Positions 17,928-20,900 of a stretch of DNA of 34,968 nt are shown piece by piece (within the stretch, counting starts at the first letter, position 1; each line of letters starts with the position of its first letter). Both the position numbers and the translations under genes were made by a program. Source of the stretch: Parvularia atlantis (taxonomy: Eukaryota); the NCBI GenBank assembly GCA_943704415.1, contig CALSCO010000461.1, forward strand, positions 1-34,968, read 5' to 3'. The notes beneath the pieces were generated by a model that was not told where the DNA came from, searched no databases, and saw only the letters and a list, made by a program, of their open reading frames with translations.

Positions 17928-20900
17928 ATGAGCGAGCTCAGCGAGGCCGACAAGAACATCGAGGTGTGGAAGGTCAAGAAGCTGATCAAGTCGCTCGAGG
18001 CCGCGCGCGGGTGCGCCGCGCCACGATCACCGCCCTCGCACGCGCAGCACTGACTACTGCCGCGCACCGCAGCAATGGCACGAGCATGATCTCGCTCATC
18101 ATCCCGCCCAAGGACCAGATATCGCGCGTGTCCAAGATGCTCGCGGACGAGTACGGCACGGCGTCAAACATCAAGTCGCGCGTCAACCGCCTCTCGGTTC
18201 TGGCCGCGATCACGTCAACGCAGCAGCGCCTCAAGCTCTACAACAAGGGTGCCGTCCGCCGCTCGCCGACGGCGTCATGCCGCCGCCCGCTCACCACGCC
18301 TCATCTCGCGCGCGCGCAGTGCCCAACAACGGCCTCATCGTCTACTGCGGCACGATCGTCACGGACGAGGGCAAGGAGAAGAAGGTTAACATCGACTTTG
18401 AGCCGTTCAAGCCCATCAACACCTCGCTCTACCTCTGCGTCGCCGGCGACGCCGTCGTCGCCACCGCCAGCGGCGCCGGCCGGCGTCTGCACGACGTCGT
18501 CGCCCGCGCGCACCCGGAGCGCGTCCTCGCCGCATCGCCCGACCGCCGCGCCCTCACCGTCGCGCCCATCACGGCCTTCCAGCACAAGGGCACGCGCGCC
18601 TGCGTCACCGTCACCCTGCGCGACGGCCGCACGCTTACCTGCACGCCCGACCACCGCGTGCTCGTCCGCCGCGCCGGCGCCCCCGTCTGGGTCGAGGCCG
18701 CGGACCTGCTTCAGACCGACCTCGCCGTGTGCGGCCTCGACGCGCCGCTCGTCGATGACGACACCGACGCTGACGACAGCACGTGGGCCATTGCCGGCAT
18801 CCCCGCCCGCGACCGCGCGCGCCTCCAAGCCTTTGCGCGCGTCTGCGGCCTCGTCGCGGCCGGCGACGCCTTCCCGGCGCTGCGCGTAGACCACGAGCTC
18901 GACGTCGTGAGCGTGCAGGACGACATGGCGCTCGCGTGCGGGACGAGCGGGGTCGTGCGGGCCGGCGCCGCCGCGGGCGTCTACGAGGTCGCCCTGCCGC
19001 CCGCATTGCAGGCGATGTGCGTCGCGTCTGGGGCTGCCGCACGGCCGGCGTGGCCCGCCTGGGCGCTCGACGAGCAGACGCCGCTCAACGTTCTGCGCGA
19101 GTTCATCGGCGGCGTCATGGGCGGCTGCGGGCTCGCGCCGCGCCTGGGCGACGGCGGACGGCTCGAGCACGAGGTCGTCTTTGTGCAGCCGGCTCGCGGT
19201 GTGCGCGGCGCGGCGCTGCTGTGCCAGATGCTCGAGCGTCTGGGTGTGCGGGGCGCCTCGGTGCGCGAGGACGCGGCCGTGTGCCTGCCGAGCGCGCTCG
19301 GGTCGCTCGCGTTCGACACGAGCGTCGGCTACCGTCACAGCGTGCGCAAGCAGGCACTCAACTCGGCCGCGGCCGTGTACCGCCGTCTGCACGAGCAGCA
19401 CGCGGCGCAGCGCGAGGCGTTTGCCGCGCTGGTGGCCGAGGCGCGCGCTGCGGGCGAGTCGCGGGCCGTCGCGGCCAAGAAGGCACGGCTGGCAATGCGC
19501 GAGCGGCACGGCGTGCTGCTGCCACCGGGGCCGTTTGCGCCATTCGAGCGCGTGCTGCGCGAGATCGGTGCGCTGAGCCTGTTCACCGCGGGGCTGCCGT
19601 GCGGGTCAGAGCTGCCGCCGCTGCTGCTGGGCGTGTGCGACGTGCGCGCGGCGGGCGAGCGCGAGGTGTTTGACATGAGCGTCGAGGCGGCGCACTCGTT
19701 CACGGCCAACGGCGTCGTTGTGCACAACTGCGACAACAAATTTCACACCGAGGCCCTGCAGGAGTTGATGGCGTCCGACAGCAAGTTTGGCTTCATCGTC
19801 ATGGACGGCAACGGCTCGCTGTTTGGTGCGCACGCACCCGCCACCTGAACGAGGGGCTGCTGAAACACGCGCACCCTCGGCACCAGGCACGCTCTCGGGC
19901 AACACGCGCGAGGTGCTCCACAAGTTTGCCGTCGACCTGCCCAAGAAGCACGGTGCGCTGCGCGGGTTGCCGGCGGTCGTGTGCTAACCGCGTGCGGCGC
20001 GGTGCCCAGGCCGCGGCGGTCAGTCGGCGCTGCGTTTCGCGCGTCTGCGCACGGAGAAGCGGCACAACTACGTGCGCAAGGTGGCCGAGCTCGCGACGCA
20101 GTTCTTCATTACGAACGACAGGGTGCCGTATGCGCGTGCATGTGTGTTGCACAGCAGCGCGTGCTCACACGCTTCGACGCCACACAGCCAAACATCTCGG
20201 GCCTCATTCTCGCCGGCTCAGCCGACTTCAAGACAGAGCTCGGCCAGAGCGACATGTTTGACCCGCGCCTGCAGGAGAAGATTATCAAGGTGATCGACGT
20301 GAGCTACGGCGGCGAGAACGGGTTCAACCAGGTGCGCGCTGCTGCCGCGGGGCTAGTACGTCATGCCTGACACACGGGGCGGGCTACAGGCGATCGAGCT
20401 CAGCCAGGACGCGCTGACCGACGTCAAGTTCATCCAGGAGAAGAAGCTCATCCAGACGTACTTTGACCAGATCTCGCAGGACACGGGCCGCTACTGCTTC
20501 GGCGTGGCCGACACGTTCAAGGCGCTCGACATGGGCGCGGTTGAGACGCTGATCGTGTGGGAGAACCTGGACGTGATGCGCTACGTCGTCAAGAACAACA
20601 CCACGGGCGAGGAGAAGGTCGTGCTGCTGACGAAGGAGCAGGAGGCGACGCAGAACCAGTTCAAGGCGGGCGAGGATGGCGGCGAGACCGAAGTCGTCGA
20701 CAAGCAGCTACTGATGGAGTGGCTCGCGGAGAACTACAAGAACTTTGGTGCGCTCGTGGGCTTCTCTTGTGGGCACGTGCCGTTCTCAAACCGCGTGCTG
20801 TGCGACAGGTGCCACTCTCGAGTTTGTCACGAACCGGTCGCAGGAGGGCGCGCAGTTTGTCAAGGGCTTTGGCGGCATCGGCGGCCTGCTGCGGTACAAG

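What the first reader, a model, noticed from the sequence alone, without database searches (positions are those of the whole stretch)
18436..19728. Intein in eukaryotic release factor eRF1, inserted at the Cys of the YxCxxxF stop-codon recognition motif
Seen: an in-frame 1293-nt insertion between TSLYL and CDNKFHT with all class-1 splicing residues (Cys1, TxxH, block F Asp, His-Asn, +1 Cys). Known: YxCxxxF (human Y125-C127-F131) is an essential stop-decoding motif. Nuclear eukaryotic inteins are rare and mostly reported in VMA1, PRP8, GLT1, CHS2, ThrRS, RNA polymerase subunits and eIF5B, plus the large Anaeramoeba set. I do not recall eRF1 as a host. Inference: a new intein allele that makes translation termination depend on protein splicing, and potentially on redox or metal state through the two Cys nucleophiles.
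Basis: partly seen in the sequence, partly recalled or inferred. Interest (0 to 1): 0.9.

Follow-up and report, generated by a model that had tools for sequence, protein, structure and literature searches.

The report
Self-splicing intein inside release factor eRF1
The nuclear gene for eRF1, the protein that reads stop codons, carries in this unidentified microbial eukaryote a 431-residue intein in the middle of its stop-reading motif, so a working release factor likely appears only after the insert cuts itself out of the protein; related eRF1 genes from other environmental sequences carry inteins at this and two further sites, and I found no paper naming eRF1 as an intein host.

Summary
Confirmed. 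Window 18436-19728 (+) encodes a 431-aa in-frame intein between the equivalents of human eRF1 Leu126 and Cys127. All class-1 splicing residues are present, and removing it gives a 437-aa eRF1 with intact GTS, NIKS, YxCxxxF and GGQ.

A second host (L001, an intron-free full ORF) has a 53%-identical intein at the same site with both Asp kept. Four likely cercozoan eRF1 proteins carry inteins at two other sites, before Ser64 (NIKS) and before Cys302. The intein belongs to a family common in giant viruses and found in many eukaryote-type genes, nearly always before a cysteine.

Splicing is untested. Nothing here supports a redox or metal switch. eRF1 was absent from the intein surveys I could search, but the Anaeramoeba host table was unreadable. 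The scan had not noted this before. Verdict: a new member of a known kind, in an apparently unreported host.

The parts
17928..20969 (+). eRF1 gene, 8 exons (17928-18010, 18073-18248, 18320-19825, 19887-19952, 20010-20122, 20188-20331, 20390-20747, 20809-20969), 7 GT-AG introns of 57-71 nt; 868-aa precursor, 437 aa without the intein
   Evidence: gene model, one terminal stop; eRF1 identity
18436..19728 (+). class-1 intein, 431 aa (precursor residues 126-556), inside exon 3
18436..18438 (+). Cys1, block A nucleophile
18643..18654 (+). block B Thr70-x-x-His73
18847..18867 (+). LAGLIDADG motif 1, degenerate: Gly143 where 74 of 97 relatives and L001 have Asp (an Asp follows one residue later, at the family's Gly column)
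19102..19131 (+). LAGLIDADG motif 2, degenerate: Cys231 where 74 of 97 relatives and L001 have Asp
19672..19674 (+). block F Asp413 (Asp in 97 of 97 relatives)
19723..19728 (+). block G His430-Asn431
19729..19731 (+). +1 Cys of the C-extein, equal to Cys127 of the eRF1 YxCxxxF motif

Best explanation
The insert is a class-1 intein with a decayed homing endonuclease, sitting directly before the YxCxxxF cysteine of a nuclear eRF1 gene; it is likely translated as part of an 868-residue precursor and is predicted to splice itself out, using that eRF1 cysteine as the second nucleophile, to give a normal 437-residue release factor. Shown: the reading frame, the site, the splicing residues, the loss of both endonuclease Asp residues, a second allele with both Asp kept, and kinship to giant-virus inteins. 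Predicted: the fold (AlphaFold model, intein plus endonuclease). Inferred from textbook class-1 chemistry: Cys1 N-S shift, transfer to Cys+1, Asn cyclisation, S-N shift. Inferred: the element arrived by homing or non-allelic insertion from a promiscuous, virus-associated intein family, spread to fixation, lost its nuclease, and persists because only exact removal restores the stop-codon pocket. It is most likely a trapped selfish element rather than a regulator.
For: Profiles above curated cut-offs. Exact junction with human eRF1 numbering. Clean gene model whose exteins give 437 aa with all four motifs. Model pLDDT 94.6, pTM 0.93. Top PDB matches are endonuclease-bearing inteins (7qss E 2e-12, PI-PfuI, PI-SceI) and the Mtu RecA splicing domain (rmsd 1.6-1.7 A over 100 columns). 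Same-site allele in L001 shares 228 of 430 aligned residues. Conservation is highest in the splicing ends (63 of 100 and 28 of 36) against 98 of 189 in the nuclease and 10 of 30 and 29 of 75 in the linkers. Codon-position identity 0.68/0.71/0.42, and 133 of 228 identical residues differ by a synonymous change, which points to selection on the protein. GC3 is 0.919 in the intein and 0.916 in the exteins, consistent with long residence, against 0.649 and 0.843 in L001. Cys127 likely contacts the second stop-codon base in the human termination complex (PMC4605324, passages).
Against: No splicing assay, peptide or RNA read for this organism; the run search gave no result. No genome, so an intein-free paralogue is not excluded. 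The window copy is 88 aa shorter than L001, with nine gaps of 4 or more residues, one in the N-terminal splicing region after residue 37. Foldseek TM-scores to solved full-length inteins are only about 0.3. Direction and route of transfer are not shown: the AU test does not reject one clade for the two hosts (p 0.22), and none of 28 viral eRF1 loci carries the intein.
Confidence: 0.88

Rival explanations
1. The intein has been domesticated as a conditional switch: metals or oxidation slow splicing, lower active eRF1 and raise stop-codon readthrough. This does not exclude the best explanation; it adds a function.
For: The intein is kept after nuclease decay. The Cryptococcus Prp8 intein is inhibited by copper and zinc through a catalytic cysteine (PMC6805012, abstract). 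Two of the three eRF1 sites split decoding motifs. An unspliced precursor would keep the GGQ and C domains intact.
Against: Retention at essential sites is what a trapped selfish element also predicts (PMC10710043, sections read). Cys+1 is the family norm (93 of 97). The family sits in dozens of unrelated hosts. The allele is rare: 79 of the 80 best metagenome eRF1 loci have the empty site. No Cys lies near the N-junction in the extein (sequence).
Confidence: 0.1
2. The intein is a dead passenger in a non-functional eRF1 copy, and an intein-free paralogue elsewhere does the work.
For: The nuclease part is clearly decaying. No genome is available to count paralogues.
Against: All splicing residues are kept. 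The exteins have no stop or frameshift, are 83% identical to the nearest intein-free eRF1 and sit on a short branch (0.11 against a median of 0.15). The splicing ends are more conserved than the rest.
Confidence: 0.06
3. The segment is removed at the RNA level, as a spliceosomal or self-splicing intron.
For: The gene has seven real introns, and one of the equivalent boundaries starts with GT.
Against: None of the six boundary positions that restore the eRF1 frame is GT-AG; the GT one ends in GC. The gene's introns are 57-71 nt, not 1293. The insert is an open frame under protein-level selection. L001 lacks all introns yet keeps the intein; that it is a transcript is my inference from its shape.
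Confidence: 0.02
4. The feature is real but already catalogued, for example in the Anaeramoeba host table, so only the organism is new.
For: Anaeramoeba has inteins in 55 KOGs, and its Dataset S1, S2 file and SI appendix could not be read. InBase itself is not searchable here. 37 of 157 hits of the long-eRF1 search were not listed.
Against: 'release factor' and 'eRF1' occur 0 times in the main texts of PMC10710043, PMC5784728 and PMC4760082. They also occur 0 times in 4 supplements of PMC5784728, where the control term eIF5B was found, and in 2 of 3 supplements of PMC4760082. All intein-bearing eRF1 proteins found are unnamed environmental sequences.
Confidence: 0.12

Closest known systems
Class-1 inteins with a LAGLIDADG (DOD) homing endonuclease: PI-SceI (VMA1), PI-PfuI, TliVMA
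   Same: Same architecture and splicing residues; these are the best PDB matches of the model.
   Different: Different host and site; 10-14% sequence identity to those structures; an extra helical stretch at about residues 303-384; nuclease Asp residues lost in this copy.
Nucleocytoviricota inteins in RNA polymerase subunit 2, family-B DNA polymerase, primase-helicase, RNR and ThrRS
   Same: Nearest non-allelic relatives. The top 30 sequence hits are mostly such host types. 218 viral stretches encode a relative. Best BFVD matches are Cedratvirus RNA polymerase, Yasminevirus ThrRS and Pandoravirus RNR (TM 0.82-0.83).
   Different: Only about 20-35% identical. No viral member sits in eRF1: 0 of 79 family loci and 0 of 28 viral eRF1 loci.
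Anaeramoeba promiscuous, virus-linked nuclear inteins (cluster 15; Gallot-Lavallee et al. 2023, PMC10710043, parts 1-4 of 6 read)
   Same: One intein lineage spread over many unrelated nuclear proteins and several viral proteins, usually at conserved sites; the quoted Prp8 sites are also before Cys.
   Different: eRF1 is not named in the main text. My hosts group with other lineages.
Nuclear inteins in translation proteins: ThrRS and eIF5B (Green et al. 2018, PMC5784728, passages and supplement search); Prp8 as a multi-site intein hot spot (PMC6805012, abstract)
   Same: Essential nuclear gene-expression proteins invaded at conserved motifs; several sites in one protein.
   Different: Those affect aminoacylation, initiation or RNA splicing. 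None of the surveys lists a termination factor.

Membership tests
Class-1 intein | In-frame insertion whose exact removal restores a conserved host protein | tested here: met
   437-aa eRF1 with a contiguous YxCxxxF
Class-1 intein | Cys/Ser at position 1, block B TxxH, block F Asp, terminal His-Asn, +1 Cys/Ser/Thr | tested here: met
Class-1 intein | Hint fold | tested here: met
   predicted model only; matches the Mtu RecA splicing domain at rmsd 1.6-1.7 A over 100 columns
Class-1 intein | Autocatalytic protein splicing with extein ligation | not testable with these tools
   needs a reporter assay or proteomics
Class-1 intein | Segment retained in the mature mRNA | tested here: inconclusive
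   no RNA data for this organism; no GT-AG boundary; intron-free L001 keeps the same-site intein
Mobile (homing) LAGLIDADG intein | Two LAGLIDADG motifs each ending in a catalytic Asp/Glu | tested here: not met
   Gly143 and Cys231 in the window copy; met in L001 (Asp165, Asp274); 69 of 97 relatives keep both
Hedgehog-type or bacterial intein-like Hint domain | Short Hint domain, no nuclease insert, not interrupting a conserved host motif | tested here: not met
   Pfam Hint 19.8 bits, below cut-off 29.7; 431 aa with a nuclease remnant inside a conserved motif
eRF1 | GTS, TASNIKS, YxCxxxF and GGQ motifs in a three-domain protein | tested here: met
   (after in-script removal of introns and intein)
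Conditionally splicing (sensor) intein | Splicing rate responds to metals, redox state or temperature with an effect on host function | not testable with these tools
   no assay; sequence gives no specific sign
Anaeramoeba cluster 15 | Sequence-network membership with those inteins | not tested
   their intein sequences (Datasets S1, S2) were unreadable

The most novel reading that the evidence does not exclude
eRF1 is a recurrent intein hot spot in uncultured protists, hit at three sites, two of them in the stop-decoding motifs. In this host the nuclease-dead intein has been kept as a metal- or redox-sensitive gate on translation termination: when splicing stalls, a precursor with intact GGQ and eRF3-binding domains but a split decoding pocket would build up and raise stop-codon readthrough across the transcriptome. 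The hot-spot half is largely shown here; the gate half is untested and sets the probability.
Probability: 0.1. Interest if true: 0.88.

Novelty: new member of a known kind. Interest (0 to 1): 0.58.

Why it matters
It adds translation termination to the short list of nuclear processes that need protein splicing, in a domain where core translation proteins rarely carry inteins. It gives a ready test pair: one allele with a dead nuclease and one with both catalytic Asp residues, aimed at a target site conserved across eukaryotes and in giant-virus eRF1 genes. That allows direct tests of homing specificity and of whether splicing rate tunes stop-codon readthrough. The wider family, found before cysteines in kinases, myosin, dynein, coatomer, importin, Cox11 and chromatin proteins, bears on the question left open by the Anaeramoeba paper of whether intein-rich eukaryotes are outliers.

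Tried and rejected
No whole genome is held, so paralogue number and the genome-wide intein load are open. No RNA evidence for this organism was obtained.

Host identification failed. The C-terminal exon has no relative above 70% among the 120 listed hits. The eRF1 tree only places the host with fungi and animals at SH-aLRT 94 (37 of 111 rows used).

Horizontal transfer between the two site-a hosts is suggested by patchiness but not established (AU p 0.22). The relation of the site-a intein to the P0157-type site-b intein is unresolved (AU p 0.61, long branch, 40 of 101 rows).

A viral eRF1 vector was not found. The L001 precursor found no relative in viral contigs. 27 of 28 viral eRF1 loci have a contiguous motif and the other is a fragment ending before the site. 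No second intein of this family lies in the window. A scan of prokaryote genomes with the family alignment gave no usable pattern. The wide VIA fold search was not run.

Paper searches listed nothing that names an eRF1 intein; some searches listed only 20 of 34, 20 of 27 and 16 of 19 matches, and I saw most listed papers only as listings. The two readable Anaeramoeba supplements are a proteomics table and a DNA-repair table, so their zero count is not evidence.

Full report
Observation. Window 18436-19728 (+) is a stop-free frame of 431 codons that starts with Cys, ends His-Asn and is followed by Cys. It passes the curated cut-offs of Pfam Intein_splicing (49.4 against 35.8) and of both TIGRFAM intein terminal models (35.1 against 24.5 and 25.4 against 15.6). 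The flanks match human eRF1 up to residue 127 and resume at the same cysteine, placing the insert between Leu126 and Cys127. A frame this long stayed open in 8 of 2000 shuffles of the same bases.

Host gene. The insert lies in exon 3 of an eight-exon gene (17928-20969) with seven GT-AG introns of 57-71 nt. Joining the exons gives an 868-aa precursor with one terminal stop. Removing residues 126-556 leaves 437 aa with GTS, TASNIKS, YxCxxxF and GGQ intact. Neighbours are ordinary nuclear genes: a DnaJ gene head to head, a lysine-pathway saccharopine dehydrogenase tail to tail, a trefoil-GH31 glucosidase, tubulin and cytochrome c1. The organism could not be named. Its eRF1 is at most 83% identical to anything fetched and groups with fungi and animals at SH-aLRT 94. 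No genome is held.

Not an intron. The junction can slide over six positions without changing the product, and none is GT-AG. L001, a 3095-nt metagenome contig, holds an intron-free eRF1 ORF with an intein at the same site. It begins 83 nt before the start and ends about 100 nt after the stop, which looks like a spliced transcript; that is inference. P0003 is 99% identical to L001 over 396 intein residues, so I count them as one allele. RNA data for the window's organism were not obtained.

Anatomy. I extracted 108 inteins by pattern from 157 stored proteins, dropped 9 rows (8 low-scoring unrelated inteins and 1 duplicate) and compared the window copy with 97 family members. Cys1, TxxH and the terminal Asn were extraction criteria, so their counts are not evidence; block F Asp was not a criterion and is present in 97 of 97 and in the window. 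Both LAGLIDADG Asp columns are Asp in 74 of 97; 69 keep an acid at both and 17 at neither. L001 keeps both, while the window has Gly143 and Cys231. The window copy is 88 aa shorter than L001, with nine gaps of four or more residues. The AlphaFold model is confident (pLDDT 94.6, pTM 0.93, 40-sequence alignment). Its best PDB matches are nuclease-bearing inteins and, for the splicing part, the Mtu RecA intein at 1.6-1.7 A over 100 columns, though whole-chain TM-scores are about 0.3. The language-model search also returned intein/LAGLIDADG clusters (0.95).

Selection and age. The two alleles share 228 of 430 aligned residues. Identity is 63 of 100 and 28 of 36 in the splicing ends, 98 of 189 in the nuclease, and 10 of 30 and 29 of 75 in the linkers. 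Third codon positions have diverged most (0.42 against 0.68 and 0.71). The window intein has the host's GC3 (0.919 against 0.916), whereas the L001 intein does not (0.649 against 0.843). This fits an old, immobilised copy here and a younger, possibly still mobile one in L001 (inference).

Distribution. The two hosts' exteins are 76% identical, less than the window's identity to several intein-free eRF1s (81-83%), and they do not group together. The AU test still does not reject a common clade (p 0.22), so horizontal transfer is not established.

Other eRF1 sites. Among 119 further long proteins from the eRF1 search (120 of 157 hits listed), four carry inteins elsewhere. P0157, P0158 and P0238 have one before the equivalent of human Cys302 (for P0158). 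P0267 has a 216-aa Hom_end-type mini-intein between Lys63 and Ser64 of NIKS. These four hosts group with Paulinella micropora eRF1 (SH-aLRT 99), so they are likely Cercozoa. The P0238 and P0267 inteins show no BLAST similarity to the window's; the P0157 type is a distant relative of unresolved position. eRF1 has therefore been invaded at three sites by at least three intein types.

Origin. The nearest non-allelic relatives sit in family-B polymerases, RNA polymerase subunit 2, primase-helicases and XRN. 218 viral stretches encode relatives, many in giant-virus assemblies; most of the 72 complete ones share one insertion site, which I read as RNA polymerase subunit 2 from its flanks. The best viral structure matches are Cedratvirus, Yasminevirus and Pandoravirus proteins (TM 0.78-0.83). 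The same family also interrupts Cox11 (one named, Sorochytrium), aconitase, a tyrosine kinase, myosin, dynein, coatomer, an importin, PCAF, PHD and SET proteins, before Cys in 93 of 97 cases. No viral eRF1 with the intein was found.

Mechanism. Most likely (0.88) the precursor splices by the class-1 route (textbook knowledge), with eRF1's own Cys127 as the +1 nucleophile. That residue likely contacts the second stop-codon base (PMC4605324, passages), and backbone geometry there matters for decoding (PMC3632111, passages). An unspliced precursor would therefore be predicted not to read stops, and imprecise loss of the intein would be harmful. This explains persistence without any benefit. A sensor role has a precedent in the Cryptococcus Prp8 intein (PMC6805012, abstract) but no specific support here (0.1).

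Literature. 'Release factor' and 'eRF1' occur 0 times in the main texts of the eukaryote survey (PMC5784728; passages and 4 supplements searched), the prokaryote survey (PMC4760082; passages and 2 of 3 supplements) and the Anaeramoeba paper (PMC10710043; term search plus parts 1-4 of 6). The Anaeramoeba host table (Dataset S1), its S2 file and SI appendix were unreadable and could overturn the novelty. The BsV paper lists eRF1 and inteins separately, with inteins only in polymerases (PMC5871332, passages). PMC4381064 gave only that SUP45 is essential in yeast (passages). Full-text searches found no eRF1 intein report among listed papers. The scan's own notes hold nothing on it.

Verdict. Real, and apparently an unreported host and site, replicated in a second organism and extended by two more sites. 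The mechanism is that of a standard intein, so I rate it a new member of a known kind, interest 0.58.

Noticed in passing
P0267 residues 68-283; P0157 307-732; P0158 307-741; P0238 308-792: Inteins at two further eRF1 sites (inside NIKS before Ser64; before Cys302) in hosts that group with Paulinella. P0238 and P0157 have dissimilar inteins at the same site, and P0238 ends Gly-Asn rather than His-Asn.
   Followed up: partly
P0011, P0061, P0026, P0054, P0149, P0099, P0112, P0089, P0087, P0034, P0129, P0062, P0031, P0083, P0096, P0091: The same intein family interrupts many eukaryote-type proteins (Cox11 twice, including Sorochytrium KAL7751080.1; aconitase, tyrosine kinase, myosin, dynein, coatomer gamma, importin, PCAF, PHD, SET, carbamoyl-phosphate synthase, HlyIII-family membrane protein, phosphatase, IBR and ZZ fingers), nearly always before Cys. 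It suggests a larger unsurveyed set of nuclear inteins; I did not check each host against the literature.
   Followed up: partly
L087 and L162: Contigs with the same giant-virus assembly name carry a member of this intein family (L087) and an eRF1 gene with the empty target motif (L162), so donor and a homologous target can co-occur in one viral genome bin.
   Followed up: no
L185, L186, L187 around 2501-3374: Viral eRF1 genes whose match changes reading frame near residue 100, upstream of YxCxxxF; possibly programmed frameshifts or decay.
   Followed up: no
window 26253-27883 (-): Long open frames encoding a probably secreted protein with no Pfam match at E 0.001; function not examined.
   Followed up: no
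window 16928-17705 (-) and 21064-24400 (-): A DnaJ gene starts about 220 nt upstream of eRF1 on the opposite strand, and a lysine-ketoglutarate reductase/saccharopine dehydrogenase gene ends about 95 nt downstream of the eRF1 stop, so the locus is very compact.
   Followed up: no
window about 12480-12530, 22950-23000, 23700-23760: Runs of GT/CA dinucleotide repeats, seen in the ORF translations, in or between genes.
   Followed up: no
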